64,000 nucleotides of DNA from a virus (IMGVR_UViG_3300025030_000060:32555-96554); one strand, 5' to 3'. Shown: positions 32,383-56,121, counted from the first letter of the stretch. Notes: generated from the letters alone by a model not told the origin. Made by a program: numbers and translations.

Positions 32383-33138
32383 TTAAGGTTTGATGCAGTA
32401 CGGAAGTGCTATGTTGCGCGGTCGGGTCTCTGTGCCCCCGGTACTGCTTGTCAAAGCCCCGCTTTCTCCAGCAGCCACGCCCGCATTGACTCGATAGGAC
32501 ATGCTTGATGTCCCGGCATAATCTGCAACTGCGTGGTTATGGCTCTTAAACGCATCAGCCTGATAGCTGCCCAATGCACGCCCCGTATCGATCCCTCTGC
32601 CGCCATCCAAACCCCTGATGAACTCACCCCGTAAGTCGGGCAGGTTGTAGGTTGTCGTCCCATCCCCTGTACCGTAGGTAGTCCCTATTATCCCGTAAAG
32701 AACGGCATACGTTGCCCTGCTTACCGCCGTCCCGTTTGCCGCCAGCCACCCTGTCGGGCAACTGGAACCCGCAAATGCGATTACGGTCCCGGAAGGTGCG
32801 GCCCTGTCGGCAGTCAGACCTTGAGCTGCCGTGGCAAAGTCGGCGGCATGGAGTCCGTCTACCGTGTCGGCATCCCCGGTAATGCTCCCAGGCACCTTGC
32901 CGCTCCCGTTACGCACCGGAATGGTATTCGCTACCGTCCCGGCATTTGCGGCGTAGCCTACCCCGCCTAATGCGATCTGCCCTACGGTGGCTTTCCTCGA
33001 TGCACTCCCCTGAACCACGTTCACGAGGTCTGATGCTGCGACGCTGCTCGCCGCTGGCATCTGCGTGATTTTCAGGTCTGCTGCAAAAACGATGCTCGGT
33101 AACAACATCAAAGCCAGTAAATATCTAAGCGTTTTCAT
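32383..33138 (-). CDS. Short tail fibre with tail-collar domain and signal peptide
   Basis: PSGTVIAFAG...PTGWL.ANG...NLPDLRGEFIRG.D.GRG.D and ETRPRNIAL.YCIK. Confidence 0.85.
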   Translation of the reverse strand: MKTLRYLLALMLLPSIVFAADLKITQMPAASSVAASDLVNVVQGSASRKATVGQIALGGVGYAANAGTVANTIPVRNGSGKVPGSITGDADTVDGLHAADFATAAQGLTADRAAPSGTVIAFAGSSCPTGWLAANGTAVSRATYAVLYGIIGTTYGTGDGTTTYNLPDLRGEFIRGLDGGRGIDTGRALGSYQADAFKSHNHAVADYAGTSSMSYRVNAGVAAGESGALTSSTGGTETRPRNIALPYCIKP

Positions 33139-33152
33139 TGAAGCCCCTCCTG

Positions 33153-34178
33153 TTAAGTGACTATATTGTCTCCATCCTCGGTGAGGATGTGCTCTCCGTC
33201 TTCGGTAATGAGATTGAAAGATTGAGAGAAATCTGTTCCTATGAAAATCATGCCGTCATAGACGATATGCAAAGGCTTGATCTTTTTCACTAAAGTGTCA
33301 ATACGCGTCAAGGCGTCTTGGTCGATTGCGCCCAGGTCTGCCAAAATAACCCCTCTCGAAGTCAGGTAAGCCCCATCAGGTATGCCTGTGGCATCATTGT
33401 AAAACTTGGAACCATACTCTCCGTCTGCCTCTAACGCCCACAATGGCAACCACTCAACCGCACCGCTGATGATGTATTCGCTCTCCCCAGGCGTGAGCAT
33501 CCAGCTATCGCCGCCTTCGCCGTCAACGCCCTCAATGCTCGCCTTTACCAACACTGATTTGCGTGTGCCGTTCGCATCTTTGAGCCAAAGGTCTGGGGAC
33601 GGTATGCCGTCTACGCTGGCGACGGTAGCGAACCAGACATCATTCCCCTCGTCATCGGCTCCAACAATCTGCGCCTGAATTGCTCCAAGTTTCCCGGACC
33701 CGTTTTGATCGGCTAGAAGAATGTCTGCGCTCGGGACTCCCGAACTCGTGCTTATCTCGATTTGCCAGTTTGCACCCTTATCCCACCTTGCTTGGAGTTC
33801 TCCGACTTTCCCGCTCCCCCCTGTGTCTAGCAGAAGCACTGAAGGTGCACTCACTGTTGACCCCTCCAGCCCTATGCGCTGTATCGCGGAGCGGATAGGA
33901 TAATCCGTGTCCTTCATGGCAAGTTCCAGCTTCCGCATGGCGACAGATATAGGAATGGACACTTCCGCCTGATCGGGTTCGAAGTAATCCCCTAGATCGG
34001 CGACTATTCGGCGCTGTCCGTCTGCATCCGCCGTATAGATGGAGTTCATGCGACGGATTTTTTCCAGTTCTGGGTCGAAGCCCGTTTCCCAAAAGGTCTG
34101 TATGGCTGCCCCTAGTTCCGTCCATCTCGCAACCCCCCGTTTGGCCGGGGTCAGCCTTTTTACCAGCCAGTCAAGCAT
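33153..34178 (-). CDS. gp16: Baseplate wedge protein (P1 gp16-like) with repeat insertion
   Basis: WL..RLTPAK, W.PLWA, YLTSRG, PLHIVYDG motifs; follows bplA. Confidence 0.75.
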   Translation of the reverse strand: MLDWLVKRLTPAKRGVARWTELGAAIQTFWETGFDPELEKIRRMNSIYTADADGQRRIVADLGDYFEPDQAEVSIPISVAMRKLELAMKDTDYPIRSAIQRIGLEGSTVSAPSVLLLDTGGSGKVGELQARWDKGANWQIEISTSSGVPSADILLADQNGSGKLGAIQAQIVGADDEGNDVWFATVASVDGIPSPDLWLKDANGTRKSVLVKASIEGVDGEGGDSWMLTPGESEYIISGAVEWLPLWALEADGEYGSKFYNDATGIPDGAYLTSRGVILADLGAIDQDALTRIDTLVKKIKPLHIVYDGMIFIGTDFSQSFNLITEDGEHILTEDGDNIVT

Positions 34179-34190
34179 GATGATTCCTTA

Positions 34191-35597
34191 TTACGGGTAG
34201 GTAAGGGCGAACGTGCTGCCGAGAATGTCAATGGAAACCGCTTCTTTTAGCTGGCTAGGGGATGTGATCCCCGCTACGTTTATCTCATAGTAGGCTCCGG
34301 GCGCTTTAAAGTACCCTGTGTCTTTGACCCGTTTGTACAGGTCGGAAATCCGCACAGAATCAAGCCTTGTGGTCGAGTCAATGCCGTAGTCCTCACTCAG
34401 GAGGTCCTTGAGGTTGCTGACAGCCGTGGGTATGTCTACATCACGACCTATCTTCCCTGTGATGGTGACAGTAAAGGCCGACATTACCGGAACCTCCCAT
34501 TCGAACTTGCGGTTCAGGAGGGGGACTTCGCCAAGTGCCGCAAGTACTTCCGTCGAAAGGGTAACGCTTTCGGGCGCGTAGGCCGAAACGAATATCTTGT
34601 TTATGTTCTGGACGTCAAAGCCACTTTCCTGCTCTTGCTCCTGCTCTCCCCAGCACTTTATCCAAGTAATGCCTGCAATCTTGCTTTTGATATAGAAGGC
34701 GTAGTCGTCATCCCATACCAGCTTTCGATTGTAGCGAGGCCAGTAGTGAAGATTTTTCCTCATTTCTGTGATGCTTTCCGCTGCCCCACCGCCGTCTATG
34801 CTCTCCAGGCTGATTATGCTTAGATTTGCTGGTTCCCCTGCCATATCCAGCACCTCTGAAAGTAGCTGCAACTGCTGTCCTGATACCAGTACGGTTTGCC
34901 CCTCCGAGGTCCAGTAATTGACCTTTATCGCCGCACCGAATGGCGGGATCATTCCAAATATGCCATTGCCGAAACGTATACCGGTTTGACTCATGTGGCT
35001 ATAGAACTCATCGTAAACGGTGGCATCTGCGGCACTGTTCTGGAACAGGGGGGCATAGGTCCACGGTACAAAGCCGTCCCCGGTGTCCACCAACACCTCG
35101 AAGGATACAAGCTTACCGCTCACATCCTTGGGGAAGATGATCTCAAGAAAAGGCGACTCTTCGGAGATGGCGGCCAGTATCGGTTCATGCACAGTGAGCT
35201 GTGAGAATTCCACATCTACATATCCTCCGGGCAGTATGGCTGCCGCGCTTCTCAGCAAATACTCGACCTGCGCGGTGGATATGAACGCCGTATTGTCCGG
35301 GAGGGGAACCGAACTGGCTCCGTTATTGGTGATCCGCACAGTCCCTTTCGAGGGCGTTGTTTTGCGTGGAACATACTCTCTTCCTTCAGCGTGCGCCCTA
35401 ACGGACGAATCGTTGATGGCAGTGGCGAGAAAGAATTCCTGCTTCGCTCTCTCGACCTTCCAGAGTGCATCCCGCAAAGCCCAACTCTGGAAGATCGCTA
35501 TCTGGTCCACAAACTGGCTTTTCGCCAGCCGAACCCACGATGCGCCTGTGCCAATGATCGCTTTGAACTGGTCTATGGCGTCCTGCACAGAAATCAT
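34191..35597 (-). CDS. bplA: Baseplate wedge protein BplA
   Basis: EFFL.TA...SS, IRFGNG.FG.IPP, WGEQEQE motifs; synteny. Confidence 0.85.
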   Translation of the reverse strand: MISVQDAIDQFKAIIGTGASWVRLAKSQFVDQIAIFQSWALRDALWKVERAKQEFFLATAINDSSVRAHAEGREYVPRKTTPSKGTVRITNNGASSVPLPDNTAFISTAQVEYLLRSAAAILPGGYVDVEFSQLTVHEPILAAISEESPFLEIIFPKDVSGKLVSFEVLVDTGDGFVPWTYAPLFQNSAADATVYDEFYSHMSQTGIRFGNGIFGMIPPFGAAIKVNYWTSEGQTVLVSGQQLQLLSEVLDMAGEPANLSIISLESIDGGGAAESITEMRKNLHYWPRYNRKLVWDDDYAFYIKSKIAGITWIKCWGEQEQEQESGFDVQNINKIFVSAYAPESVTLSTEVLAALGEVPLLNRKFEWEVPVMSAFTVTITGKIGRDVDIPTAVSNLKDLLSEDYGIDSTTRLDSVRISDLYKRVKDTGYFKAPGAYYEINVAGITSPSQLKEAVSIDILGSTFALTYP

Positions 35598-35941
35598 AGC
35601 TTAACATCCCCCTCAAAGGCTCCAAAGCCGAAATCAATGACCACATACATGAGGTCTATCTCCTTAAATTCCACAAGGACGCCTTTTAGTACCATATCCT
35701 TGACATCAAGGGAAAGCTTTTCAGCGATGAGCATTTCCGCCATCACGTTTGTATCAGGCCCAGATGGCTCGAACTTCAGCCTTGAAAGCCTGTGCCCCCA
35801 TCCGGGTTTGTCTGCGACAGTCCCTTCAGGCGTCGCAAGCCACTCATAGATGCGCTCTTGCATAGCATGCTCGTCGGGCACAGTAATCACGCCGGATTCA
35901 TCCAATTCCATAATAAAACTGTACTCTTCAATTTGAGCCAT
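35594..35941 (-). CDS. pmgA: Baseplate protein PmgA (gp25-like)
   Basis: R..EWL.TP.G....P.WG motif; synteny. Confidence 0.8.
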   Translation of the reverse strand: MAQIEEYSFIMELDESGVITVPDEHAMQERIYEWLATPEGTVADKPGWGHRLSRLKFEPSGPDTNVMAEMLIAEKLSLDVKDMVLKGVLVEFKEIDLMYVVIDFGFGAFEGDVKL

Positions 35942-35944
35942 GGC

Positions 35945-37813
35945 TTAAATCCTGTCGTGGGTCATGAGGTTCAGAATCGTGTCATCATAATGCACTTTGA
36001 TCGGGGCCAGTGTCGCCGTTTCCTTTTTGGGTGCATTTTGCTTGTTCAGTGCCGATATGAGCTTTTCGGTCCCCATCAAAGTTGCAGTCAGGGGTGCAGT
36101 GCCCGCATCCTTCAGAGATGTCGGCTGGGACACCTCCTTGATTTGCGTCTTTGCCGGGACGATAGCCCCCCGCTCATATGCTGACTTGTTGCGCTGAACT
36201 TTGCCGGGATAGTTGACGGTCTCCAGCGGCATCGCTTGCCCCTTCGCCCCCCGTCCCGTTTTTAGGTAAGCGTCCATGTTTCCTTCGCCCCAGTTGTATG
36301 CCTGGAGCGCATGGGTTTCATTTCCGCCATATTTCTTCATGAGCCTGCCAAGGTGCGCGGTCCCACCTTTTATGTTTGCCTTCGGGTCGCGGCGGTCGGT
36401 AACGCCAAGGTCTCTTGCTGTTCGAGGCATGAGTTGCATAAGCCCCACAGCTCCGGCCTTCGACTTAGCATTAGGGTTTCCTTGGCTTTCCGTGCTGATT
36501 ACTCCCTTAATAAGGTTCGAATTCAGCCCGTTCTTTTTGCTGGATTTTTCTATTTGCTCACTGGCCGATTGCGGCAGTACGTCCCCGGTGACAGGGTTGT
36601 ACTCTAAGGGCTTTTTCCCCTGTTTGACCCTCTCCTTGTTCATGCTCTCAACATAGGCGACGCTCTTGCGGTTCACCGCCTGCTGGTCAGAGTTGTCGCT
36701 GACGCTTGGCAACCCCGTCTTCTTATACAGGTCGTTGATCGGGTTGCTTCCACCCATGAAGAGGGATTTCAGCGCAGACCCTCCAGCCAGCACGGCGGCT
36801 GCTCCCGCAAGTACCGTCCCGCTGGCGAGCACCCCCAGCACCGGACCTGCTTTTGCCAGGACCTTGGCCGCGATGCTCGCCCCAGGAATCTTGCTCAAGA
36901 GTTTGATTCCTGTTGCTCCGGTGATCCCCCCGCCGATGGCTTCGGCAATACCAGCCCCGGCACCGCCCCCCCCGCCGCCATGCCCTCCGCTCTCTATGGT
37001 CTGGATCAGTTCACGGTGCCGACGCTGTTCGGTTCCTTCGGTCGGCGCGGCGTTGCGTCCTGTGGCAAGTCGCGTCTTCCGGCCCAGGAACTTGAATGCT
37101 TTCCCTAACAGGGTCTTGTCGTCCTGAAGTTTTTCCTTCAGTTCGCCGACAGCGCCTTGCATCTCCTTAGCGGCCTCCCAAATCGGCCCGCCAACGGCCT
37201 TTCCTGCCGCATCCTCTATGTCTCCTCCTTTATCCTTCCCCTTACCAATGACGGCACCAATGGCGGCTTTGAACCATCCCTTCATCCCCTTGACAGGTTC
37301 TTGGCTCTGCTGCTTTTCCCTCTCCAGTTCCCCTGCCGATTTAAACCGTCCGTTTTTGGCGCGTTCGGGCTGATTGATGGCTGTTGTGGCGCGGGAAGTG
37401 GCCGCTCGTGCGGAGCGAGGCATGGCGGGGATAGGGGTGACAACTGGCGTAGGCACTACCGGTGTAGGGAGCACCGGAGAAGCGTTCCGGGTGACGGTCC
37501 TGGCTGTCGCCGCTTGCGCTATCCGGGCCGCGACCGCCGAAGGGCGCACGGAGACGGGGCCGGATGTCGCCTTCAGCCGCTCGGTGGATTGCCGCAGGGG
37601 CTTTTCGATCTTGGCGAAATCCCGCACGTACATGTGCGCGGCCTTGGTCCCCTTGGCGACAGTCAGGGCTCGTAGCAGGGTCGGCAGCACGGCGGTGTTG
37701 CGCTCGATTTTCTTGAGAAGGGGGCGGTTCTCGAACTTTTCGAGGATTTCGGAAAGAGCCTCTATCGGGTCCTTCTCTTCGGCCTTCTGGGTTTTGACGG
37801 TTTCTTCGAACAT
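35945..37813 (-). CDS. sit: Tape-measure/injection transglycosylase Sit
   Basis: SLT motifs ESQG, A.GLMQLMP.TA, AYN.G; GGP.W motif; position between pmgB and pmgA. Confidence 0.8.
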   Translation of the reverse strand: MFEETVKTQKAEEKDPIEALSEILEKFENRPLLKKIERNTAVLPTLLRALTVAKGTKAAHMYVRDFAKIEKPLRQSTERLKATSGPVSVRPSAVAARIAQAATARTVTRNASPVLPTPVVPTPVVTPIPAMPRSARAATSRATTAINQPERAKNGRFKSAGELEREKQQSQEPVKGMKGWFKAAIGAVIGKGKDKGGDIEDAAGKAVGGPIWEAAKEMQGAVGELKEKLQDDKTLLGKAFKFLGRKTRLATGRNAAPTEGTEQRRHRELIQTIESGGHGGGGGGAGAGIAEAIGGGITGATGIKLLSKIPGASIAAKVLAKAGPVLGVLASGTVLAGAAAVLAGGSALKSLFMGGSNPINDLYKKTGLPSVSDNSDQQAVNRKSVAYVESMNKERVKQGKKPLEYNPVTGDVLPQSASEQIEKSSKKNGLNSNLIKGVISTESQGNPNAKSKAGAVGLMQLMPRTARDLGVTDRRDPKANIKGGTAHLGRLMKKYGGNETHALQAYNWGEGNMDAYLKTGRGAKGQAMPLETVNYPGKVQRNKSAYERGAIVPAKTQIKEVSQPTSLKDAGTAPLTATLMGTEKLISALNKQNAPKKETATLAPIKVHYDDTILNLMTHDRI

Positions 37814-37819
37814 AGGCCC

Positions 37820-37984
37820 CTACTTTTTTAATCGTCGCAGCATGGAGTTATAGGAGGAAAGGACGTGGCTCTTTTCGGTCTGGAGCATGCTGCCCTTATC
37901 CTGATGCCAGAAAAAGCAGAGGTCGTTCAGGACGATGTGCCAGGACGCCTCAGTGTAGTCTTGGAATGTAGTCGCTATTCCGAA
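37820..37984 (-). CDS. Putative +1 frameshift extension of PmgB (G-T-like tail chaperone)
   Basis: 55-codon open +1 frame starting at ACC TTT CGG and filling the gap to sit. Confidence 0.55.
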   Translation of the reverse strand, partial: FGIATTFQDYTEASWHIVLNDLCFFWHQDKGSMLQTEKSHVLSSYNSMLRRLKK

Positions 37985-38804
37985 AGGTGACCCGGATTCG
38001 GGTCGTTGCCTCCTTGTCGTCCTTCTTTTTGGGGCACTGGTGCGGCGGGGTGATGAGAAAGACTTTGCCCCCCTCGTAAATCGAATTCAGCCCGTGCTCC
38101 ATCTCCAGCAGCTTCTCCACGACCAGTCCCGCAAACTGCTCAAACTTGCCGTAGGACATGGACATGAGCTTCTTGCGCTTTGCCGCCCGGAGTTCGGCGG
38201 CCTTGGCCTTTCCTTCCGCTTCGAGATCCTTCTTGCTCTTCAGCTTGTCGGCGATGCGGTTCGCCCAATTGCCGGGATCGGCAAAACTGACAGCCAGTTC
38301 AAACCGAGTGAAGCGCATAAGGGCGGCCTGTCTCTGGTACTCCCCGCTGTTCTCGTCCCCGATTTCATCCAGCACGAGTTGCATTTCTTCCAGCTCTTCC
38401 ATGCCGTAGCCATCCACTGGCCTTACGATGACCTTCTCGCCTTCCCATTCCAGTTCTCGCTCTGGTAGTCCCTGAATCGGCTTATAGGTCTCGTCCAGCT
38501 TGCGGTAGTCCTGAAGGAAGTGGTGCAGTTCCCCGCAGTGCTGACACTCGTAGGAGAGCGGGCCGTCCTTGTCGCCGGGGGTGTTGCTGTAGTACCAGTA
38601 CAGCGCATACCTGCGGTCTTCCGCCGTCCACGTCCGGCAGTCTACGAAACTTGCTTTATCTTGGACGGTGTTGAGGAAAAGGGTTGTCACCTCTTCCTCG
38701 TGGCCGACGCTCACCCCGGCAAAGTCCAGGGTTTCGGCGACGGTCGCCTCCCGCAGGGTGATCAGGGTGTCCGGTCTGGATGGCAGTGAAAAACGTGGCA
38801 GCAT
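37950..38804 (-). CDS. pmgB: Tail assembly chaperone PmgB
   Basis: F.LPS.P, WTA.DRR.AL.W, Y.C.HCG..H, FR..D.IP; precedes the tape measure. Confidence 0.8.
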   Translation of the reverse strand: MLPRFSLPSRPDTLITLREATVAETLDFAGVSVGHEEEVTTLFLNTVQDKASFVDCRTWTAEDRRYALYWYYSNTPGDKDGPLSYECQHCGELHHFLQDYRKLDETYKPIQGLPERELEWEGEKVIVRPVDGYGMEELEEMQLVLDEIGDENSGEYQRQAALMRFTRFELAVSFADPGNWANRIADKLKSKKDLEAEGKAKAAELRAAKRKKLMSMSYGKFEQFAGLVVEKLLEMEHGLNSIYEGGKVFLITPPHQCPKKKDDKEATTRIRVTFRNSDYIPRLH

Positions 38805-38810
38805 AGGCTT

Positions 38811-39680
38811 TTAACCTTTCATGAGCGTGTTGATGGTGGCGTACTTGGCGGCGAGGTCTTCGGCCCCTGCTGCAACGGCGATAAAGACGAATCCGGCGCT
38901 ATATAGCTCGGAGTCAGCAGGCGGTGCCCCGGCTTCTGCTTGGAGGCGGTCGAGGTACCCCCCCGCCCCAGGTGGCAGCATAATAGAGTAAACTCCTGTC
39001 GCTTGCAAGCCCGTCATGAAGTCCTGTGCCGCTGTCAAGCCTTTATCCAAAGCGGAGGTTATCTTCCCTACGTGGTTCGCTGTCGCCAGCAGTTCCTTAA
39101 CCCCTTTATTCAGGTCTGCCGACGCTGTGCCTATGCCGGACATGGCTCCGCCGAAAACATCCCCCAATTTAGCCGATTCCCATTGCCCTGAAGGGTAAAG
39201 AATATCCCAGTCTGGCAATTCGACGGGGGGGAAGTCTTCATAAACCGGGGCATCGGGCACGAAGTCGGAAAAGTCGGTTTGGTCTATGAATTTGTTCGCG
39301 TCGTCTATCGGCTTGAGCATCGCCGTCTTGACCTTGGCATAGGCGTTTGTGACGACGGCAGGATCAGCGGAGATAATAAGGTTTGCCGTCCCGGAACAGA
39401 AGCCGCTGTTGGGCGGCTCGTTTAATGCTCCGGCCAGTCTGGCGCTCCAAGAACCGACTTCTGGTGCGAGGGTTATCATGTAGAAGCCGGACTCTGCCAG
39501 CTTGTCGAGCATCGTCTTGTTGTCGGTCGCCGCGTCGAGCATGGCGGTCAGCCTGGACTGCATAGCTGCGGTCTGGCTGTTGAGTGCTGCGAGTGCTGTC
39601 TGTGCCGTGGCGATGGCTGCATTAGCCTTCGCGGTCATGCCTGCCACAGAATCGGCCAGTGTTGCGTTTAACCAAGCCAT
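38811..39680 (-). CDS. Hypothetical virion/baseplate-region protein with internal duplication
   Basis: Two copies of G.Y.I.L.P..G....RL.....PP; inserted between tub and pmgB. Confidence 0.7.
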   Translation of the reverse strand: MAWLNATLADSVAGMTAKANAAIATAQTALAALNSQTAAMQSRLTAMLDAATDNKTMLDKLAESGFYMITLAPEVGSWSARLAGALNEPPNSGFCSGTANLIISADPAVVTNAYAKVKTAMLKPIDDANKFIDQTDFSDFVPDAPVYEDFPPVELPDWDILYPSGQWESAKLGDVFGGAMSGIGTASADLNKGVKELLATANHVGKITSALDKGLTAAQDFMTGLQATGVYSIMLPPGAGGYLDRLQAEAGAPPADSELYSAGFVFIAVAAGAEDLAAKYATINTLMKG

Positions 39681-40863: not shown

Positions 40864-40900
40864 GGTGGCTCCTTGGGGATCATCAGAGTAGTTGTGAATG

Positions 40901-40930: not shown

Positions 40931-40946
40931 TACAGCAGGGAGGGGG

Positions 40947-47463: not shown

Positions 47464-47471
47464 GGCACCCC

Positions 47472-47699
47472 CTATTTCACCTTGCCCGTGATTATGCCCG
47501 CTCCAGCTCCACCGGTGTCATGCGTTAGAGATACCAGTTCGGAATGCCCGACGATCTCGGCAACGATGGCGATGGAGTCGGCGAGAAGCAGGGCCTCCCG
47601 GTAGGCGATGGTGTTGGCGGGGTCACTGCTTTGCGGGGAGGGTACCGCATCCATAGCGGCCTGCCTCAGTTGTGCCAGTCGGTTTGCGTCGAGGGCCAT
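47472..47699 (-). CDS. Small spike-associated protein
   Basis: Directly after gp5; Gly-rich C-terminus GGAGAGIITGKVK. Confidence 0.6.
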   Translation of the reverse strand: MALDANRLAQLRQAAMDAVPSPQSSDPANTIAYREALLLADSIAIVAEIVGHSELVSLTHDTGGAGAGIITGKVK

Positions 47700-47708
47700 G
47701 CCTTGCTC

Positions 47709-48446: not shown

Positions 48447-48449
48447 AGT

Positions 48450-49442
48450 TTAATTCCTTATGCCGGAGACTTGGCAGAAGTATGACTGCGGACTCCATGA
48501 GTGCGCTACCATCCCTATGACGACCTTGGCCGGAAGGCTTTCGTCAATTGGCATGTCGGCGCGTTCGGTGTTCCACTCCAGCCCGAGAGTAAGGCCGGGG
48601 AGTAGCGCCCCGTTGCCAGCCGTACTGAAGTCGATGACGGGTTTTGAGATCTCAGTGAGGTTGTCGATGCTCGCCTTGGATGCCGACGTAAACTCGGTCG
48701 GGGCCTTCGGGAAACGGCTGGACTTCTGGAACCCCTCAACCATGTCCCATCCAACGTAGTTACGCTCGGTCAAATCCTGTATGATGCCTTCGGTGTTCGG
48801 CCTGGAGTATACGATGACCTTGTTCTCCTTGCGCGAATCGTTGTGGCTGTATACCATCTCTGGCGCTGCGCTGTAAAGCTCTTTCAGTTTCCTGAACACG
48901 ATCTGGCCCCTTTGCCAGAAGCAGACCGCACCATGTTCCTGCGCCATCTGCCGGAGCATCTTTGAAGGGCGCATGGCAGGCAAAAGGTGATAATCGTTCG
49001 TGGCAGGGAATGATCCCACGTCGTATTTAAGTCCAGGGGCGAGTTTTTGAAGGACTGCCGACACTGATTTATGGCTGAAAACAATCGCTTCGCGGGCCGG
49101 GAGCTTCAGTTTGTAAACGCTTGCCTCTATGCAGTTGAAGGTGATCCACCGGTCGTTGATCGGCATGGTCAGGATGACAAAGCGGATTATCTTGTCCAGG
49201 CCATCACGCTGGAATCGGTCTGAAAGCACAACCTCAAGGACGTCTTTTGGTTTTACTCCCAGCTCGTCCCGGATGATTCGGTAATAATCATCTATGACAA
49301 ACATCAAGCGAGGCCCGGAAAGATCCGACGTTTCCACATAGGTGAGTTCCTTTAGGAACGATCTATCAAGGGGTTCAAACGGCTTATTGTCCCGGATAAT
49401 GGTAATTTTTTGGACCAATATGTCTTCTTGGTTTGCTGACAT
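48450..49442 (-). CDS. gp6: Baseplate hub protein (P1 gp6-like)
   Basis: YVE..DL.GP.L, YHL.....PSK.LRQ.A...GA.C...RG, DES.P motifs. Confidence 0.8.
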   Translation of the reverse strand: MSANQEDILVQKITIIRDNKPFEPLDRSFLKELTYVETSDLSGPRLMFVIDDYYRIIRDELGVKPKDVLEVVLSDRFQRDGLDKIIRFVILTMPINDRWITFNCIEASVYKLKLPAREAIVFSHKSVSAVLQKLAPGLKYDVGSFPATNDYHLLPAMRPSKMLRQMAQEHGAVCFWQRGQIVFRKLKELYSAAPEMVYSHNDSRKENKVIVYSRPNTEGIIQDLTERNYVGWDMVEGFQKSSRFPKAPTEFTSASKASIDNLTEISKPVIDFSTAGNGALLPGLTLGLEWNTERADMPIDESLPAKVVIGMVAHSWSPQSYFCQVSGIRN

Positions 49443-49443
49443 G

Positions 49444-51024
49444 TCACCCCCTGACTAGTCGTTTACCTTTGACTTGCTTGCCAGTGATCTTCTTGCGCGA
49501 TTTTGCAACCACACTCAGGGTCACCGCCTCACTCACTACAGGGGTAGTGTCGCCAGATAGAGGGGTGATCCTGAGTTTGACCTGATATGTACCACTGGAT
49601 AACGCTGAGAGGTCAAGCGTGTGACTACCGGGGGATTCCGTGCCAACCGTTGTGTAGTTGGCTCCGTTGTCCGTTGAGTATGCTAGAGTGTAGTCGCGGT
49701 CTAACGTATCAACTGTGGTATATTCCACTATACCATTAACTGCAAAAGGGGTGGAGGTAAAACCAGTAAACGTCACAGGGGTGAGTGCTAAGGCCACAAT
49801 TGATGTCTTCCACTCATAGTACTGAAAGGGTTCATCATGATTCGCGTCGTTGTAGCTACCGTAATCCCACAGTGTCCAAGAACTCAGCGAATGCACTTCA
49901 GTTGGTCTTGATGACCCTGAAAAAGGCCAGAATGATACCGCCTCAACCGACGATTGCCCCGCGACTTCAGACATCATTGTAGATATACAAGCAGCATCAG
50001 CAGCGCTGGGAGCCTCAGACCATAATTCCCTGTAAAGCCCAAATTCGTCAATTCGTATTTTGGTTCCCGTACGTCCGGCGTTTGCAAGTGACGCGTTTAT
50101 TGTGGCGACGCCGGATACCACACTGTAAGTGCCTCCCGAAAGGTATGAGTGGGGCAAAATGTGCCCATCATAAATATTGTCCTTACCTTGTGTATGTAGG
50201 TAATCAATGAGGGCAGCAGCATTAGTGTAGGAGTGCGCGGATGTTAGGTCAACTTTGATATTATTCTGCCTTTCAGCAGGTAATGCGCCTTTGACTGCAT
50301 TGTAAACGAGTTCCTGCAACCGAGCAGTTTCAGCAATATAAGTAGTGTTCCCAAAAGCATCACCTTCATTCATCGGATCAATATGAATGTGCGAATAGTT
50401 CTGATAACGGTCAGCCAAAAATGCGGCTAATGGGGCGTTGAAGTAGTCCCAAACTGTCCCGCCGTAGCAAACCTCGGCCTGCAATAGTAAAGCATTTGCC
50501 GCCCATAAGTGGTTGAGGCTCATACTACCATAATCTATGTTGTAACTACCCCAATACCATGAAATGTACGGGATAGTCAGTACCAACTTTTGCCCGTAAT
50601 GCGCCGTGCGCTCAACAACTCGGTCCAGCACACTCCAATCGTAACTTTCGTCGGGTACAATCGGCCCTGTGTATGCTGTGCCATTACTAGGGGCGGACGT
50701 TATGAGCCGCATGAATTGGCCGGGAACCGCCCACTCACGAATCCATTTAATACCTAGTTCCGCGAATTTGCCATATGCCCAGTCAGTGTATCCGTTACCT
50801 AGTAACCACGGATACTGACGGCCCCATGTTGTCGCTAAAAGCCCTGCGTAACTATCGGGCTCATCGTCGTCATTGGTATAAGGAACTCCAGTTGCATATG
50901 ATTGCCCATACTGGTTTAAAAGAAATGTACCGTAACTGGTTGCATCCTCCATGCTTTCAGCATCGTTCTGACACATTTCCCCATAAGCGCGCGATCGTAA
51001 AAAATTTATTCCGAAATCCGCCAT
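49444..51024 (-). CDS. Clan GH-A glycoside hydrolase (TIM barrel plus Ig-like domain), possible virion depolymerase
   Basis: LG.KW.R, YDW..LD.VV, NE acid/base, HSY, EFG nucleophile motifs; low GC. Confidence 0.7.
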   Translation of the reverse strand: MADFGINFLRSRAYGEMCQNDAESMEDATSYGTFLLNQYGQSYATGVPYTNDDDEPDSYAGLLATTWGRQYPWLLGNGYTDWAYGKFAELGIKWIREWAVPGQFMRLITSAPSNGTAYTGPIVPDESYDWSVLDRVVERTAHYGQKLVLTIPYISWYWGSYNIDYGSMSLNHLWAANALLLQAEVCYGGTVWDYFNAPLAAFLADRYQNYSHIHIDPMNEGDAFGNTTYIAETARLQELVYNAVKGALPAERQNNIKVDLTSAHSYTNAAALIDYLHTQGKDNIYDGHILPHSYLSGGTYSVVSGVATINASLANAGRTGTKIRIDEFGLYRELWSEAPSAADAACISTMMSEVAGQSSVEAVSFWPFSGSSRPTEVHSLSSWTLWDYGSYNDANHDEPFQYYEWKTSIVALALTPVTFTGFTSTPFAVNGIVEYTTVDTLDRDYTLAYSTDNGANYTTVGTESPGSHTLDLSALSSGTYQVKLRITPLSGDTTPVVSEAVTLSVVAKSRKKITGKQVKGKRLVRG

Positions 51025-51956
51025 TACAGGTCACCCGCAGAAAAGTTATCAATACTGCCTGTATTCTCCAGTATAATCCCAGGCGAACCTGAGGTAATTG
51101 TTGAATCAGTTATTGATATAACGGAGTTAGCCCAACTGGTGCCATCATAGGTGTCGATAGTGATAGACGAACCAACAATATTTGCGCGGATTTGCGTGAT
51201 ACCTAAGAAGTACCCCCCCTCACCATCATCACCGGTAACATCAGTGGTAGCCAGAGTGCTGGCTGTACCCGCGACTATTTTGTTCAATAGCAGCATCCAT
51301 GTATCATTACCTGCAAAATATGCGTAGCATTGGTACCTTGTGAATAACGTGTCGCTGCCCCGAAGAATTACGCCCGAGGGTAGAGATACTAAATCTACCT
51401 GAACAGACTGGTTTGGTGCAAATGTTTCGTTATAAACAGCAGCGTAAACCCCCGTGCCTTGACCAGCGGCTACATTGGTGGATATCAGTGGTGCAGCCGA
51501 AGGCGAAGCAGTCAGCCAATTACTACCAAGAGCGCCATCCGCTCGGTTAAAGCTGTCTGTTACGGAAACAGGTACACTAGGAACCGCGTTAGCACTTGCA
51601 CTCAAGGCACTCTCTCCAATTGCGTTAACAGCCGTAACACAAAAGTAGTATGTCGTACCATCTGTCAGCCCTGTTATGGCCGTACCTGATGTTGTACCTG
51701 TGATTTTGGTCGCGCCGTCCGACCCGTCTTTGGCTGTCGGAGCAGACCCCGCCATCCAATACACGTTATACGAGGTAGCCCCTGATACCGCACTCCATGA
51801 CGGCGTTATGCTGCCGGATGCGGTTGCAAGGGTCGGCGCAGAGGGGGCGGCGGGAACGGAAGCAACAGCCTTCATGGCCGCCATGAACAGCAACTGAGGC
51901 GACGCCCACGCAGGGGAAACTATAAGCAGGGATAGAACCAGTAATCGCCATATCAT
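51024..51956 (-). CDS. Secreted fibronectin type III plus lectin-like protein
   Basis: Signal peptide ending AWA; WS.V.GA.SYNVY...GL..GT.YYF.VTAVN..GES FN3 motif; DSFNRADG.LG..W and IDNF beta-sandwich. Confidence 0.75.
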   Translation of the reverse strand: MIWRLLVLSLLIVSPAWASPQLLFMAAMKAVASVPAAPSAPTLATASGSITPSWSAVSGATSYNVYWMAGSAPTAKDGSDGATKITGTTSGTAITGLTDGTTYYFCVTAVNAIGESALSASANAVPSVPVSVTDSFNRADGALGSNWLTASPSAAPLISTNVAAGQGTGVYAAVYNETFAPNQSVQVDLVSLPSGVILRGSDTLFTRYQCYAYFAGNDTWMLLLNKIVAGTASTLATTDVTGDDGEGGYFLGITQIRANIVGSSITIDTYDGTSWANSVISITDSTITSGSPGIILENTGSIDNFSAGDL

Positions 51957-54900
51957 CAGTAATTCTCCTTGATCGCCGCACAATCAGCGGTGTTGGCCCC
52001 AGTCCCCTTGCATGCGAACCACGACTTAGTTGTAAGCGTAGCGGGCGTTCCCGTCACCCATGTTGGAGTCAGCGTGGTGATCGTCACGGTTCCAGTCCCA
52101 GTCAAGCTGAAATCGAAATACCTCCCGGCCACTACGTTGGTGATGGTGATGGAGTTGGAAGCGACAGAAGCACCTGCATAAGCGGTAGTATCAAATGTGG
52201 CCGATGTCGTTTGAGGGAAAACCCCGCCGCTGATCGTGGGATTAGTGCCAAAGACTGCGGCACCCGTGCCCGTCTCATCAGTCAACGCAGCGGCGAGATT
52301 GGCACTGGAAGGCGTTGCAAGCGCAGTCGCCACTCCTGTGCCCATCCCGCTGATGCCTGTCGCTACGGGAAGCCCTGTGGCATTGGTGAGCGTGGCACTG
52401 GTGGGCGTGCCAAGAACCGGTGTTGTCAGGGTGATTCCTGCGAGCGTAAGCCCTGCCGATGCTCGTGTCATGTCTACAGCGGTAGTTCCGATGTAGACAG
52501 AGGGGAGACGCGCAGCAGCTATGGTACCGGTCGCTATGTTGGTGGCACTGGTTGTGTCTGTGGTCGCCGACGTGGCCAACCCCGACACTCTCACCGCAGG
52601 AACCGTGCCTGTCGCTATGGTTCCCAGAGTGGTGATTGCCGTCGAGCCCGCCCATGTGGAAAGCGCGGTGTTCTCGACGCTGTTAAGCCCAAGGCTGCTT
52701 TTAAATGCGGCATAGTCCGTTGCCCCGAGCAGAGCTTGGACGTTCACACTTGGGGTGATCCCAGCAAACGTGGTCAAGTCGGCGTCGTAGGCTTGGACCG
52801 TAGACCCGAGAGTAAGCCCGTCCAATTTGGTTTTATCGGCTGCGCTCATACTGCCATCCGCGATGGTTGTCGCAGCGGATATGCTGATAGCTGGAGCTGT
52901 GCCGCCTGATGACACAATGGGCGCGGTGCCCGTTACAGCGGTAACAGTCCCCCCTCCTGCCCCTGGCGCGGAGATGATACCATTGCTGATGGTGACACTG
53001 GTTCCGTCGACCTTCACGCCGCCGAGTACCGTAGTCGATGCCGTGGGGAGCGTGTATTCAGTCCCTGCTGGAGTCCAACAGCCCTCTACCGCCCCGTACT
53101 GGTCCACCCCTAATGGTGATTGCCCTGCGGGACAGTTGGACCCGTTCGCGTAAAGGGCGGTCGCCGTGGGTGCATTGTCGGTTGTGACCGCCAGTGTCCC
53201 GGAGGAGGGAAAGACTACGCTGGACATGTCGGCACCGGCCCCGCCTCGGCTTTTCGCCAAGGTGCCTGTCCACCCAATGGTATGCGTACTCGTGTCGGAT
53301 GATACCGTCACATTGGTATCATTGGCGAAGGTTTGGGTAGTAGCTATCAAGCCCCCGAGAGAGGTAATCCCGCTGCCGCCTGCGCCGGTTTGGTCTCCGG
53401 TACAGGTAAACGCCCCCGTGGTTTCGTTGTAGGAGCTGATCTTGTCGGTCCCCGAACAGGTGATGGACGCGGCAAGCGCAGCCCCCGCCGTGGCATCGTT
53501 TTCCAGGTAAAATTGGTTCGGAGTTGTACCGCTGGTAGGCTTTACGTTGGTGGCAATCCACTCTGGCATGTCGATTTTGTTCTTGAATACCACTTCCCCG
53601 CCCGACGTGGACATGTTGTAAAATGTTGGTTTGCCCGTCGTATAGTTTCTGAAGGTGGTGTCAGATACCCCGCCCGACTGAGCTACCCACGAGCGAGATC
53701 CGGCGCTGGTCGATGACAGAACATACCCATCCGCGCCGGGGTTCCCAAGGGCGGCTTCCCGCGCCGTTGCGTCTACAGCGTTGATGGTTATGTTGGCGGA
53801 ACCGTTAAACCCGACGCCGTTGATGGTGCGGGAAGTGGTGAGCGTAGCCGCACTACCGGTAGTGTTCTGGTTCAACGTCGGCACGTCTGCCGTTACCAGT
53901 GAGCGGAAAAGCGGAGCCCCCGCCGATCCGTTCGGCGCGGCAAGGAAGTAGTTCGCCACCTGTGAACCATACGGGGCAATGTAATCCGTACCGGCAGCCG
54001 CAGCGGATACCGTGCCGCTCCCGTTGGCCTTCATGACCCCCGAGACAGTGCCCGCTCCCCCACGGGCCGCCGCGAGAGTGCCTGTGGTCAAGTTAGTCGC
54101 ATTGGTTGTGTCCGTCGTCGCCGAAGTAGCGAGCCCCAGCGACGAGCGGAACGCGGCATAGTCCGTCGCCCCGAGCAACGCCTGGACGTTCGCGCTTGGT
54201 GTGATCCCCGCGTAGGTCGTCAAGTCGGCATCGTAGGCTTGAACCGTGGTGCCTATGGTGAGCCCCAGCAACGATTTGAATGTGGCATAGTCGGCGGCCC
54301 CCAGCAACGATGTCACATTGACCGATGGCGACAGTGCCGCCGCTGTTCCAAGGCTTGACGTGCTGGCCTTGAGGTTTAGAGCTGCCTGAGTCGCAGTGGA
54401 TACCGGCTTGTTGGCGTCGCTGGTATTATCCACGCTCCCAAGGCCGAGGGATGTCTTTGTGACCGCCGCCGCCGCGCCCGCAACGTCATAGGCCGTTGAT
54501 GCGGTGAATGCCGCCGTACCTAGGCCGGAGGTCGCAGCCTTAGCGTCAAGGGCGGCCTGTAGCCCCGTAACCGTAGATATGGCCTGCGCCCCGGTATGGT
54601 TGGTTCGACTGAAGGCGTCTGCCGCAATGCTTTGAGGGTCGTATGTAACCGCAACCATGTCGCCGCTGCCCGCCCCTGACAGCCCCGTGTTACCTCTCGG
54701 AATGGTGAAATCCAGAACCGCATCGCTGGATGTCCCGGAGTTCGTCACGATTACATCCGTCCCAGCCGCCCCCGTTGTTACAGTCCCCACAGCCACGGTC
54801 GCTGCTGTCGCAGATGACATCTGACCCTGGACATACTGCCTGATCTGGTCCATGCTGGCAGTGTACGCCACGCCCTTCCCGTCGGCCAGACCGCTCGAAG

Positions 54901-55027
54901 GCCGCCCCAAGGGCACCTTATCGGTGGACAACACAGTTCCCGGCACGAGCGGAGTGTGCGAGATGTCGGCAGCAATCAGCGCCGTGGGTATCAGCAACAG
55001 CGCAAGCCAAAAATATACCTTGTTCAT
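51956..55027 (-). CDS. Mosaic fibre protein with signal peptide
   Basis: GLGSVDNTSD.NKPVS, VQAYDADL (x2), YTLP.AS...LGGVKV, LDFTIPRG fibre repeats; start MNKVYFWLALLLIPTALIA. Confidence 0.8.
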   Translation of the reverse strand: MNKVYFWLALLLIPTALIAADISHTPLVPGTVLSTDKVPLGRPSSGLADGKGVAYTASMDQIRQYVQGQMSSATAATVAVGTVTTGAAGTDVIVTNSGTSSDAVLDFTIPRGNTGLSGAGSGDMVAVTYDPQSIAADAFSRTNHTGAQAISTVTGLQAALDAKAATSGLGTAAFTASTAYDVAGAAAAVTKTSLGLGSVDNTSDANKPVSTATQAALNLKASTSSLGTAAALSPSVNVTSLLGAADYATFKSLLGLTIGTTVQAYDADLTTYAGITPSANVQALLGATDYAAFRSSLGLATSATTDTTNATNLTTGTLAAARGGAGTVSGVMKANGSGTVSAAAAGTDYIAPYGSQVANYFLAAPNGSAGAPLFRSLVTADVPTLNQNTTGSAATLTTSRTINGVGFNGSANITINAVDATAREAALGNPGADGYVLSSTSAGSRSWVAQSGGVSDTTFRNYTTGKPTFYNMSTSGGEVVFKNKIDMPEWIATNVKPTSGTTPNQFYLENDATAGAALAASITCSGTDKISSYNETTGAFTCTGDQTGAGGSGITSLGGLIATTQTFANDTNVTVSSDTSTHTIGWTGTLAKSRGGAGADMSSVVFPSSGTLAVTTDNAPTATALYANGSNCPAGQSPLGVDQYGAVEGCWTPAGTEYTLPTASTTVLGGVKVDGTSVTISNGIISAPGAGGGTVTAVTGTAPIVSSGGTAPAISISAATTIADGSMSAADKTKLDGLTLGSTVQAYDADLTTFAGITPSVNVQALLGATDYAAFKSSLGLNSVENTALSTWAGSTAITTLGTIATGTVPAVRVSGLATSATTDTTSATNIATGTIAAARLPSVYIGTTAVDMTRASAGLTLAGITLTTPVLGTPTSATLTNATGLPVATGISGMGTGVATALATPSSANLAAALTDETGTGAAVFGTNPTISGGVFPQTTSATFDTTAYAGASVASNSITITNVVAGRYFDFSLTGTGTVTITTLTPTWVTGTPATLTTKSWFACKGTGANTADCAAIKENY

Positions 55028-55032
55028 CCGTT

Positions 55033-56121
55033 TTACCCCCAAATCATAGATTGACCATTGTCATAGTCGATAATCCCGCCGTCATCGTAAAAACCATCCC
55101 CTTCAAATTCCCAATCCACCTCAATCCTGCCGTCGAGCGGCTGGAACGCCACGCTGACTACTCCCGCTGGATCGCTTCCAAAGTTCCCGGAGATGGTGCC
55201 GCTGTAGTAGTCCACGGTGCCGACAATAGGGATGACAACATCATTAAGCTCATAGCTGCCACTGACCGCACCTTTGCCGTCGTCGGTCGCTACGACCCTT
55301 GCCCCTACCATGAGCCTGACCGTACCCGGATTGATCGGTCTAGGGCCATCCTCCTTCGTTGCAGAGTCAAAATTAAACAGACCATCGACCAAAGCAAGAA
55401 CGTAACGCCGCTCTGCCTGTGGAACACTGCCGAAAATGACGCGAGAAGGGCCTGGAAGATCAATCTCCTTACCAAAAAGGATGTTGGTCATGATGGAGAC
55501 CGGAGTGGTTGCGGCATAGAGCCTTTTGCCGTCCACAACGTCTGAGGCGTTTTGCATGGCGATGTTCTTGTTGTCCATCAGAGAGACCCGGACGTCAAAA
55601 CTTTCGCCGCCGATCTCGAAAGGGGCCAAGAAGGCATCATGCGAAGAGACGTAGGCATACCATGCGAGGGAAATCTTGTCGAGGGCCAGTTTGTCCCATG
55701 CCAGCAACACCAGATTGTAGTCTAGCGCGACGGGAAGTTGCTGAAGGTTGAAAATCTTGTTGCCGTTCCATACACGCCCGCGTGAGCCCTTCTGGTCCTG
55801 CGTGTTAACCAGCCCCGGCTTGCGGAAGTAGTAGACAACAGGGAAAAGCGGTGCATTGATGAAGGTCTGCGATGTCACGACCCCCTCTACCAGTGTCGTG
55901 CTGACCGTCTCCTTCGCCTTCTGACTGGAAAGGAAGTCTCGCATGAACTGTTCCGGGGTATCGGCGTCATGCCGGAAAATCTGTTTATTCACCGGTCGCT
56001 TGATGAAGTCACGCCAGCCTTGCGGCCCCTTGTCGGCGTACCCCGCGAAAGCCCCAGCGAGAAACGCTCCAAAGGCAAAGTCGACGCTTTGCAGTTCCGA
56101 TAGTTCGTTCAGTTCTGTCAC
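55033..56121 (-). CDS. gp24: Tail terminator (P1 gp24-like) with C-terminal extension
   Basis: D.AFG.FL...F, F..RP...QIF motifs; synteny 6-24-7-25-26. Confidence 0.65.
   Translation of the reverse strand: MTELNELSELQSVDFAFGAFLAGAFAGYADKGPQGWRDFIKRPVNKQIFRHDADTPEQFMRDFLSSQKAKETVSTTLVEGVVTSQTFINAPLFPVVYYFRKPGLVNTQDQKGSRGRVWNGNKIFNLQQLPVALDYNLVLLAWDKLALDKISLAWYAYVSSHDAFLAPFEIGGESFDVRVSLMDNKNIAMQNASDVVDGKRLYAATTPVSIMTNILFGKEIDLPGPSRVIFGSVPQAERRYVLALVDGLFNFDSATKEDGPRPINPGTVRLMVGARVVATDDGKGAVSGSYELNDVVIPIVGTVDYYSGTISGNFGSDPAGVVSVAFQPLDGRIEVDWEFEGDGFYDDGGIIDYDNGQSMIWG

What the first reader, a model, noticed from the sequence alone, without database searches (positions are those of the whole stretch)
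32383..56121. Parallel docking logic: acidic DG-repeat tail on a structural protein followed by a fibre with a shared N-terminal domain
Seen: gp16 ends ...NLITEDGEHILTEDGDNIVT and the next gene's mature part starts ADLKITQMP...ASDLV.VVQ...KATVGQI. gp24 ends ...GFYDDGGIIDYDNGQSMIWG and the next gene's mature part starts ADISHTP...STDKVPL.R...TASMDQI. Inference: a peptide-tag/receptor-domain pair, possibly Ca-dependent, attaches exported fibres at two sites, baseplate and neck.
Basis: inference. Interest (0 to 1): 0.7.

Follow-up and report, generated by a model that had tools for sequence, protein, structure and literature searches.

The report
Plug-and-socket joints mounting phage fibres
Two structural proteins of this P1-like phage (a baseplate wedge protein and the tail terminator at the neck) each end in a short acidic, glycine-turn peptide, and each is followed by a fibre gene starting with a matching small cap domain. 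The same tail-then-cap pairing recurs in many unrelated phages, so it is probably a portable, so far undescribed connector that fixes fibres to the virus particle.

Summary
ORF 33153-34178(-) is a homologue of P1 gp16, the baseplate wedge protein BW2. ORF 55033-56121(-) is a homologue of P1 gp24 / T4 gp15, the tail terminator. They are the only two ORFs of the 96.5-kb contig that end in a double [DE][DN]G motif with 8-residue spacing. Each is followed at once by a fibre gene with a Sec-like leader and then an N-terminal cap.

The pairing generalises. In IMG/VR, TEDG-x4-TEDG lies at the extreme C-terminus in 58 of 81 matches. 36 of the 57 with room downstream (about 50 by eye) are followed by a gene starting with a 'KISxLP' cap. 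Fibre X matches that cap model at E=4e-11. The tails sit on at least 16 unrelated anchor families.

The cap of the second fibre ('DISHTPL' type) is a distant relative with an 8-residue insert (hhalign E=8e-4; 0 of 300 shuffles reach the score). Its YDDG-type tail and cap recur on a T4-gp15-like terminator in an unrelated 214-kb phage.

Binding, calcium dependence and export remain untested. No solved structure, Pfam family or searched paper describes the pair.

Earlier notes of this scan describe similar tag/cap joints on other DNA (e1-3278668, e1-5913376, e1-5930361).

Verdict: a real new variant of the known anchor-and-fibre docking principle.

The parts
33153..34178 (-). Gene W: baseplate wedge protein, homologue of P1 gp16 (BW2, triplex partner of BplA). 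It has an inserted middle region and a C-terminal tail.
   Evidence: phrog_2015 E=1.5e-23. BLASTP to P1 gp16 E=4e-11 for the N-terminal part and 4e-8 for the C-terminal core. AF2 model top Foldseek hits are the P1 baseplate chains 9vzk_k (E=1e-8) and 9ay5_a (E=1e-6). Gene order SLT tape measure, gp25-like, BplA-like, W, fibre matches P1.
33156..33215 (-). Tail 1 (plug): the last 20 residues of W. Three short hydrophobic strands are separated by two TEDG turns 8 residues apart.
   Evidence: Sequence. Kept, with substitutions, only in close relatives, while distant homologues carry other C-termini. pLDDT about 50, beyond the conserved core. Canonical member of the tail alignment A5.
32383..33138 (-). 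Gene X: 251-aa short fibre made of a Sec-like leader, a KISxLP-type cap, a glycine-rich stalk and a phage tail collar domain.
   Evidence: Pfam Collar PF07484 E=1.7e-22. phrog_523 tail collar fibre E=1e-46.
33082..33138 (-). Leader of X (residues 1-19): basic n-region, hydrophobic core and a V-F-A motif before the cap.
   Evidence: By inspection. Hydrophobic maximum 2.5 on the Kyte-Doolittle scale. No trained signal-peptide predictor was available.
32971..33081 (-). Cap 1 (socket): N-terminal domain of mature X, KISxLP type.
   Evidence: Scores E=4.4e-11 (40 bits) against an HMM built only from genes that follow TEDG-tail genes in other phages. Member of alignment A1.
55033..56121 (-). Gene C: tail terminator (P1 gp24 / T4 gp15 type) with an added C-terminal beta-sandwich and a tail.
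   Evidence: phrog_1767 E=2e-23 over residues 2-221. BLASTP to P1 gp24 E=2e-6. Foldseek hits: P1 tail chain 8jan_A E=8.8e-10, the T4 neck complex 9mkb and T4 gp15 4hud. Neighbours match P1 gp25, gp7, gp6 and gp5.
55117..55443 (-). Extra beta-sandwich domain of C (about residues 227-335), absent from P1 gp24.
   Evidence: In the AF2 model, strands 227-335 have pLDDT about 80 over residues 265-335. P1 gp24 is 261 aa and its alignment ends near residue 214 of C.
55036..55095 (-). Tail 2 (plug): the last 20 residues of C, with YDDG and YDNG turns 8 residues apart. It has the same register and the same distance to the C-terminus as tail 1.
   Evidence: Sequence. Conserved in close relatives (P0040, P0041, L245) but not in distant homologues. 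pLDDT below 40 and no secondary structure. The same tail type is found on an unrelated terminator in L243 and L246.
51956..55027 (-). Gene D: 1023-aa long fibre (ATG at 55027) with a Sec-like leader and then a DISHTPL-type cap. It is inserted between the gp24-like and gp6-like genes relative to P1.
   Evidence: Start site. The relative L003 keeps the first 75 or so residues but has a different distal part. P1 has gene 6 directly after gene 24.
54971..55027 (-). Leader of D (residues 1-19).
   Evidence: By inspection. 16 of 17 family members have such a leader directly before the cap, and one (P0065) starts directly with the cap.
54833..54970 (-). Cap 2 (socket): N-terminal domain of mature D, DISHTPL type. 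It is a distant relative of cap 1 with an 8-residue insertion.
   Evidence: The exhaustive search gave 19 cluster representatives, almost all with the match at residues about 20-75. Family profile against A1: hhalign E=8e-4 over 43 columns. Observed score 18.3 against a column-shuffled null of 6.95 +/- 1.48, reached by 0 of 300 shuffles.

Best explanation
The window encodes two copies of one kind of connector. The plug is a C-terminal peptide of about 20 residues on a protein already built into the particle. It has three short hydrophobic strands separated by two acidic glycine turns, with an 8-residue period. The socket is a cap domain of about 40 residues at the extreme mature N-terminus of a trimeric fibre. 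Shown here: homology and location of the anchors, the position and conservation of tails and caps, and their co-occurrence and co-variation across unrelated phages. Inferred: direct binding with one tail per fibre trimer, each of the three pseudo-repeats of the tail contacting one subunit. Also inferred: because both fibres carry Sec-like leaders placed exactly in front of the cap, the fibres may be exported and join finished particles late.
For: Within the genome: only W and C carry the tail, only X and D carry the caps, and each tail gene is directly followed by its cap gene.
Tail-first scan of IMG/VR: TEDG-x4-TEDG lies within 13 residues of the C-terminus in 58 of 81 matches. 36 of the 57 with room downstream are followed within a few bases by an HMM-positive cap gene, against 39 of 2660 ORFs overall, and by eye the figure is about 50 of 57.
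The tail-bearing proteins fall into at least 16 BLAST-unrelated families. These include baseplate wedge subunits, T4 gp15-like terminators, siphophage J-like tail proteins, fibre proteins and small proteins.
The cap always starts at residue 3-6 or directly after a hydrophobic leader.
Co-variation: YDDG-type tails pair only with DISHTPL caps, seen in 5 loci of 2 lineages on two unrelated terminator families, phrog_1767 and phrog_227. The 214-kb phage also has a TEDG-type tail followed by a KISxLP fibre.
Both tails are low-confidence, exposed extensions in the AF2 models.
Literature: P1 fibres are anchored on gp16 (PMC12810830), and its unmodelled C-terminus is proposed as the fibre contact (bioRxiv 10.1101/2025.07.21.665459). 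In JBD30 the hub C-terminus docks on the axis of the RBP trimer (PMC11445458).
Cultured example: Cronobacter phage S13 gp094 followed by gp093.
Against: No binding was measured or modelled, because only single-chain prediction was available. Similarity between the two cap types appears only at profile level (HHsearch probability 24%), and BLASTP, the KISxLP HMM and single-sequence hhalign all fail. The cap HMM was built from the genes downstream of tails, so part of the enrichment figure is circular; X and the background ORFs are independent of it. In the fibre-first scan, only about 9 of 76 upstream genes had a period-8 tail. About 55 had a different Asn/Gly-rich tail from one protein family, and about 10 had none. 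Adjacency is not universal (KPP23, ZPAH14, L251).
Confidence: 0.7

Rival explanations
1. Tail and cap travel together only because wedge or terminator genes and fibre genes are old neighbours. The tail serves the anchor protein's own folding or ring assembly, and the cap binds some other virion surface.
For: Gene order wedge then fibre is conserved in P1, P2 and Mu-type phages. Several large subsets are single protein families, such as the ILLG-ending wedge proteins and the Cys-rich 113-aa proteins, so many counts are not independent.
Against: The tail sits on at least 16 unrelated bodies of quite different virion location, and the next gene still starts with the cap. Distant homologues of W and C lack the tail while keeping the body. 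Tail subtype follows cap subtype, not body family.
Confidence: 0.14
2. The tail is a transient assembly aid, for example a template that nucleates trimerisation of the next protein's N-terminus, and not the permanent attachment point.
For: Three pseudo-repeats in one peptide would suit templating of a trimer. Fibre genes are often followed or preceded by chaperones (P1 R and U).
Against: The tails are on major structural proteins with fixed places in the particle. Small dedicated chaperones would not need that. In P1 the fibres are seen anchored on gp16 (PMC12810830).
Confidence: 0.08
3. The leader-bearing 'fibres' are not virion parts. They are exported envelope proteins (surface modification or superinfection exclusion), and their place after W and C is incidental.
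For: All four fibre-like genes of the module have Sec-like leaders, whereas tailed-phage particles assemble in the cytoplasm.
Against: X sits exactly where P1 has its fibre genes, and neither cap profile matched any other ORF of the 96.5-kb contig. Leaderless and leader-bearing caps are homologous and both follow tail genes. The relative of D keeps the cap while swapping the distal part, which is typical of receptor-binding proteins.
Confidence: 0.08

Closest known systems
Phage P1 baseplate: wedge protein gp16 (BW2) as fibre anchor (PMC12810830; bioRxiv 10.1101/2025.07.21.665459)
   Same: W is a sequence and fold homologue of gp16 in the same gene order. In P1 six fibres are anchored on gp16, and its unmodelled C-terminal part is proposed as the contact.
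   Different: P1 gp16 has a different C-terminus. P1 has the extra protein R between gp16 and fibre S. S has no KISxLP cap and no leader. The P1 interface itself is unresolved.
Tail terminators P1 gp24 and T4 gp15 (PMC9024508, PMC12810830; PDB 8jan, 4hud)
   Same: The N-terminal 220 residues of C share sequence and fold with them.
   Different: P1 gp24 and T4 gp15 lack the added beta-sandwich and the acidic tail, and are not followed by a fibre gene. From my own knowledge, T4 whiskers (fibritin) hang on the gp13/gp14 collar, not on gp15.
Pseudomonas siphophage JBD30: C-terminus of hub gp53 docks into the centre of the receptor-binding-protein trimer (PMC11445458)
   Same: One C-terminal peptide of a virion protein is inserted on the threefold axis of the N-terminal domain of a trimeric RBP encoded by the next gene. 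Some J-like homologues of gp53 carry the TEDG tail (L060, KPP23).
   Different: The sequences differ at both ends in a JBD30-like phage. The JBD30 socket is described as an alpha-helical bundle, whereas the present cap is short and likely beta-rich.
Conserved N-terminal anchor domains or peptides of tailspikes and fibres (T7 gp17, P22 tailspike, KP32/KP34-type branched RBPs with T4gp10-like domains; crAss001 gp22 residues 1-26 in the THA2-THB hub, PMC10172136)
   Same: A constant N-terminal module fixes exchangeable receptor-binding parts to the particle. crAss001 gp22 gives the only PDB hit of the cap profile, and it is weak (E=0.0015).
   Different: The partner here is a short linear C-terminal peptide that moves between unrelated anchor proteins. 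No Pfam family covers the cap and no PDB chain carries the tail. The T7, P22 and Klebsiella examples are from my own knowledge and were not tested here.
Bdellovibrio MAT fibres (PMC10769870)
   Same: Signal peptide, then a conserved N-terminal anchor domain, then a variable trimeric fibre. The anchor partner is unknown.
   Different: These are cellular surface fibres, and their N-domain is about 130 residues. Homology to the cap was not tested because no sequences were at hand.

Membership tests
P1 gp16 / BW2 baseplate wedge protein (T4 gp7-like triplex member) | Sequence homology to P1 gp16 | tested here: met
   phrog_2015 E=1.5e-23. BLASTP E=4e-11 and 4e-8 in two segments.
P1 gp16 / BW2 baseplate wedge protein (T4 gp7-like triplex member) | Fold like gp16 in solved P1 baseplates | tested here: met
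   Foldseek 9vzk_k E=1e-8 and 9ay5_a E=1e-6. The model is only moderately confident (mean pLDDT 60).
P1 gp16 / BW2 baseplate wedge protein (T4 gp7-like triplex member) | Encoded after the gp25-like and gp6-like (BplA) wedge genes | tested here: met
   phrog_1896/43 and phrog_1369/219 lie directly upstream.
Tail terminator (P1 gp24 / T4 gp15) | Sequence homology | tested here: met
   phrog_1767 E=2e-23. BLASTP to P1 gp24 E=2e-6.
Tail terminator (P1 gp24 / T4 gp15) | Terminator fold | tested here: met
   Foldseek 8jan_A E=8.8e-10, 9mkb_AB E=9e-5, 4hud_A E=8e-4, and further terminators.
Tail terminator (P1 gp24 / T4 gp15) | Hexameric ring at the head-proximal end of the tail | not testable with these tools
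   Needs a virion structure.
Acidic Gly-turn tail / KISxLP-type cap connector (defined here; no published family found) | Tail at the extreme C-terminus: two [DE][DN]G turns 8 residues apart, with 3-9 residues to the end | tested here: met
   Both W and C have it, and they are the only two ORFs of the contig that do. In IMG/VR 58 of 81 matches are terminal.
Acidic Gly-turn tail / KISxLP-type cap connector (defined here; no published family found) | The next gene starts with the cap at its mature N-terminus | tested here: met
   X scores E=4.4e-11 to the cap HMM. D belongs to the DISHTPL subfamily, related at profile level.
Acidic Gly-turn tail / KISxLP-type cap connector (defined here; no published family found) | Physical binding of tail to cap trimer | not testable with these tools
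   Only single-chain structure prediction was available.
Sec signal peptide (type I) | Basic n-region, hydrophobic h-region, small residues at -3/-1, and cleavage | tested here: inconclusive
   The features are present by inspection in X and D and in 16 of 17 D-family members. No trained predictor or experiment was available. Cys content does not differ between leader-bearing and leaderless cap fibres.
Mtd_N beta-prism cap (PF18454), named in earlier scan notes for other tag/cap joints | Match to the Pfam model | tested here: not met
   No Pfam match for X, D or any of the 32 caps at E up to 1.
JBD30-type hub C-terminus / RBP socket | Same terminal sequences as JBD30-like gp53/gp54 | tested here: not met
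   A JBD30-like phage (vB_Pae_U4) has an unrelated hub C-terminus and RBP N-terminus. The analogy is of principle only.
Phage tail collar domain (PF07484) | Pfam match above the gathering score | tested here: met
   X residues 117-174, E=1.7e-22, 79.6 bits against a cut-off of 24.

The most novel reading that the evidence does not exclude
The acidic Gly-turn tail and the KISxLP-type cap form a general, orthogonally addressable connector of tailed phages that can hang a fibre on any virion protein (baseplate wedge, tail terminator, siphophage tip, another fibre). In this phage and others the cap-bearing fibres are exported by Sec, lose their leader exactly at the cap, and are mounted on finished particles only after the inner membrane is breached. 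That would be a step of virion assembly outside the cytoplasm.
Probability: 0.25. Interest if true: 0.9.

Novelty: new variant of a known kind. Interest (0 to 1): 0.7.

Why it matters
If the pairing is a true connector, the place of a fibre on the particle could be read from sequence: find the gene whose product ends in the matching tail. That would help to annotate the many fibre genes of uncultured phages. It would explain how receptor-binding modules move between unrelated phages without losing their mount. It would also give a small, defined handle for mounting chosen fibres on phage or tailocin scaffolds in laboratory strains.

The terminator-borne version implies neck fibres attached in a way not seen in T4 or P1. 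The Sec-like leaders placed exactly in front of the cap raise the open question of whether some tailed phages finish their particles outside the cytoplasm.

Tried and rejected
BLASTP of X against D aligned only the leaders (E=6e-4).

The KISxLP HMM did not detect D even with filters off. Single-sequence hhalign of the D cap against A1 was not significant. Only the family profile gave a signal.

Pfam gave nothing for W, C, D or the caps.

tblastn of W and C against cultured phages found nothing.

The ESM Atlas look-up of the X N-terminus gave only unnamed viral clusters below the lead threshold.

The DISHTPL DNA pattern found nothing in the representative bacterial genomes.

The PDB holds no chain with the tail and only a weak cap hit.

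I considered that leaders mark disulfide-rich fibres. This got no support, because Cys density is the same with and without a leader.

Literature searches for the motif and for exported tail fibres found no description.

Calcium dependence could not be tested.
Full report
WHAT THE WINDOW IS. The window is the last 64 kb of a 96.5-kb IMG/VR viral contig. Its structural genes lie on the minus strand and are distantly P1-like. The sheath is 31% identical to P1 gp22. The PHROG matches and gene order follow the P1 blocks sit-pmgA-bplA-16-fibre and 25-7-24-6-5.

THE OBSERVATION. One search shows all four quoted sequences.
- W (33153-34178, 341 aa) ends in a 20-residue tail with two TEDG turns 8 residues apart.
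- The next gene, X (32383-33138, 251 aa), has a 19-residue hydrophobic leader, the quoted N-terminus and a Pfam tail-collar domain.
- C (55033-56121, 362 aa) ends in a 20-residue tail with YDDG and YDNG turns, also 8 apart and at the same distance from the end.
- The next gene, D, starts most likely at the ATG at 55027. It has a 19-residue leader and then the quoted N-terminus.

On the whole contig, only W and C among 613 ORFs end in the double acid-Gly motif. The motif occurs nowhere else in the coding-strand ORFs. X and D are the only hits of the two cap profiles.

WHAT THE ANCHOR PROTEINS ARE.
- W is a homologue of P1 gp16, and its AF2 model finds the gp16 chains of two solved P1 baseplates. 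Published P1 structures describe gp16 as wedge protein BW2. Six fibres are anchored on it, and its C-terminal part is unmodelled and proposed as the fibre contact (PMC12810830; bioRxiv 10.1101/2025.07.21.665459).
- The first 220 residues of C are a tail terminator. Support comes from phrog_1767, BLASTP to P1 gp24 and Foldseek hits to P1 8jan_A, the T4 neck complex and T4 gp15. P1 gp24 is the terminator at the head end of the tail (PMC9024508, PMC12810830).
- C adds a beta-sandwich (pLDDT about 80) and then the tail, which the model leaves unstructured at pLDDT below 40.
- Relative to P1, genes D, E and F are an insertion between the gp24-like and gp6-like genes.
- Distant homologues of W and C keep the body but have other C-termini. 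The tails are therefore add-on modules.

DOES THE PAIRING OCCUR ELSEWHERE? TAIL-FIRST TEST. In the 80 loci returned:
- 58 of 81 matches lie within 13 residues of the C-terminus of an ORF.
- Of the 57 with room downstream, 36 are followed within a few bases by a gene that matches an HMM of a small N-terminal domain with consensus near KISELP...ELVPIVQ.G.TKK. By eye about 50 of 57 are followed by such a gene.
- Only 39 of 2660 ORFs in the same DNA match that HMM, and 36 of the 38 in these loci follow a tail gene.
- X, which was not used to build the model, scores E=4.4e-11.
- The domain always begins at residue 3-6 or directly after a hydrophobic leader.
- The tail-bearing proteins fall into at least 16 BLAST-unrelated families. 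These include baseplate wedge subunits that follow a gp6-like gene, T4 gp15-like terminators, siphophage J-like tail proteins, fibre proteins and very small proteins.

FIBRE-FIRST TEST. A pattern for the cap core (ELVPIVQ.G) hit 80 places, 78 of them at the extreme N-terminus of long ORFs.
- About 9 upstream genes ended in clear period-8 acid-Gly tails.
- About 55 belonged to one family of Cys-rich proteins of about 113 aa ending in a related Asn/Gly-rich tail.
- About 10 had none.

Adjacency is thus frequent but not universal. KPP23 has the tail without a following fibre. ZPAH14 has a tail-like end on the gene after the fibre. One fibre of the 214-kb phage follows an unrelated gene.

THE SECOND PAIR. 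BLASTP, the KISxLP HMM and single-sequence hhalign do not link the caps of D and X. An exhaustive search with the D cap found 19 cluster representatives, almost all with the match at residues about 20-75. Of the 17 that carry the cap at the N-terminus, 16 have a classical leader before it and one starts directly with the cap.

The profile of this family aligns end to end with the KISxLP alignment, with one 8-residue insertion (hhalign E=8e-4). The score of 18.3 was reached by none of 300 column-shuffled controls (mean 6.95, SD 1.48). I read this as distant homology.

Genomic context was available for five loci of two lineages.
- Relatives of this phage.
- An unrelated, AT-rich 214-kb T4-like phage. 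There a gp15-like terminator (phrog_227, E=1e-31), encoded after a gp14-like neck gene, ends in the same YDDG-type tail. It is followed at once by a leader-bearing DISHTPL fibre.

That phage also has a TEDG-type tail followed by a KISxLP fibre. So both connector types occur together in a second, unrelated phage, and tail subtype follows cap subtype rather than the family of the anchor.

MECHANISM. Shown: the location of the anchors, the terminal position and modularity of tails and caps, and their co-occurrence and co-variation.

Inferred: the tail is the plug and the cap trimer is the socket. The tail reads as three pseudo-repeats (a hydrophobic pair, usually Thr, then acid-acid-Gly). That would let one peptide meet the three subunits of a fibre trimer. 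It would solve the one-to-three symmetry mismatch as the JBD30 hub C-terminus does on the axis of its RBP trimer (PMC11445458).

With six wedges and a hexameric terminator, the particle would carry six short collar-domain fibres at the baseplate and six long fibres at the neck.

The leaders stand exactly in front of the cap, and leaderless homologues start at the same point. This fits real cleavage and late mounting of exported fibres. It is untested, and Cys content gives no support for a disulfide rationale. Nothing bears on calcium.

COMPARISON WITH WHAT IS KNOWN. The principle of a constant N-terminal anchor on exchangeable fibres is established. Docking of a hub C-terminus into an RBP trimer has been seen in JBD30. 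What I could not find described is this particular pair.
- No Pfam family covers the cap.
- The only PDB hit of the cap profile is a weak match to the crAss001 tail fibre gp22 (E=0.0015). Residues 1-26 of that protein sit in a docking hub (PMC10172136).
- No PDB chain carries the tail.
- Text searches found nothing.

A cultured carrier exists. In Cronobacter phage S13, gp094 ends in the canonical tail and gp093 starts with the cap. Both are encoded between wac and gp13.

EARLIER NOTES OF THIS SCAN. These are unchecked AI notes that describe similar tag/cap joints on other DNA: e1-3278668, e1-5913376 and e1-5930361. The Mtd_N cap they name does not match here. Other notes report leader-bearing fibres in other phages (e1-3445941, e1-5796865) and in this same stretch (e1-5984903).

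VERDICT. The reading as a tag/receptor pair at the baseplate and the neck is supported by comparative evidence. Binding, calcium dependence and export remain to be shown. I rate it a new variant of a known kind of system, of fairly high interest.

Noticed in passing
window 28963-32358 (-): A third fibre gene, Y (1131 aa, alanine-rich repeats), directly follows X. It also has a Sec-like leader but a different mature N-terminus, with no match to either cap profile. X has no acid-Gly tail, so Y's attachment point is unknown.
   Followed up: partly
window 49444-51983 (-): Two more genes lie in the insertion between the gp24-like and gp6-like genes. E (about 311 aa) has a leader and an FN3 domain. 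F (526 aa) matches no family and has a basic C-terminus. They may be accessory parts of the neck-fibre module.
   Followed up: no
window 33465-33863 (-), residues about 106-238 of W: W carries an insertion absent from P1 gp16. By eye it consists of about three repeats of roughly 35 residues. It is modelled with low confidence.
   Followed up: no
L243 4949-6142 (+) (IMGVR_UViG_3300025012_000028): In the 214-kb T4-like phage, the gene two places after the DISHTPL fibre also starts with a Sec-like leader. So leader-bearing genes cluster behind the terminator there too.
   Followed up: no
loci L126-L203, e.g. L150:7420-7758:-: A large family of Cys-rich proteins of about 113 aa (CxxC...C...C) ends in an Asn/Gly-rich tail and directly precedes ITQLP-type cap fibres. 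The only cultured relatives found were Caulobacter phages.
   Followed up: partly
L250 2573-4702 (Pseudomonas phage KPP23 ORF006): A J-like tail protein of a cultured Pseudomonas phage ends in a period-8 TE[SA]G tail, but the next genes are small membrane proteins rather than a fibre. Its partner, if any, is encoded elsewhere.
   Followed up: no
L255 2489-4312 (Klebsiella phage vB_Kpn_K54_rec4 gene 101): A capsule depolymerase ('colanic acid degradation protein') of a 142-kb Klebsiella phage starts with a KISELP-type cap. No tail-bearing gene lies directly upstream.
   Followed up: no
window 28433-28942 (+): A 169-aa ORF on the opposite strand, just after the fibre block, has an N-terminal hydrophobic leader and further hydrophobic stretches. 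It may be an envelope protein.
   Followed up: no
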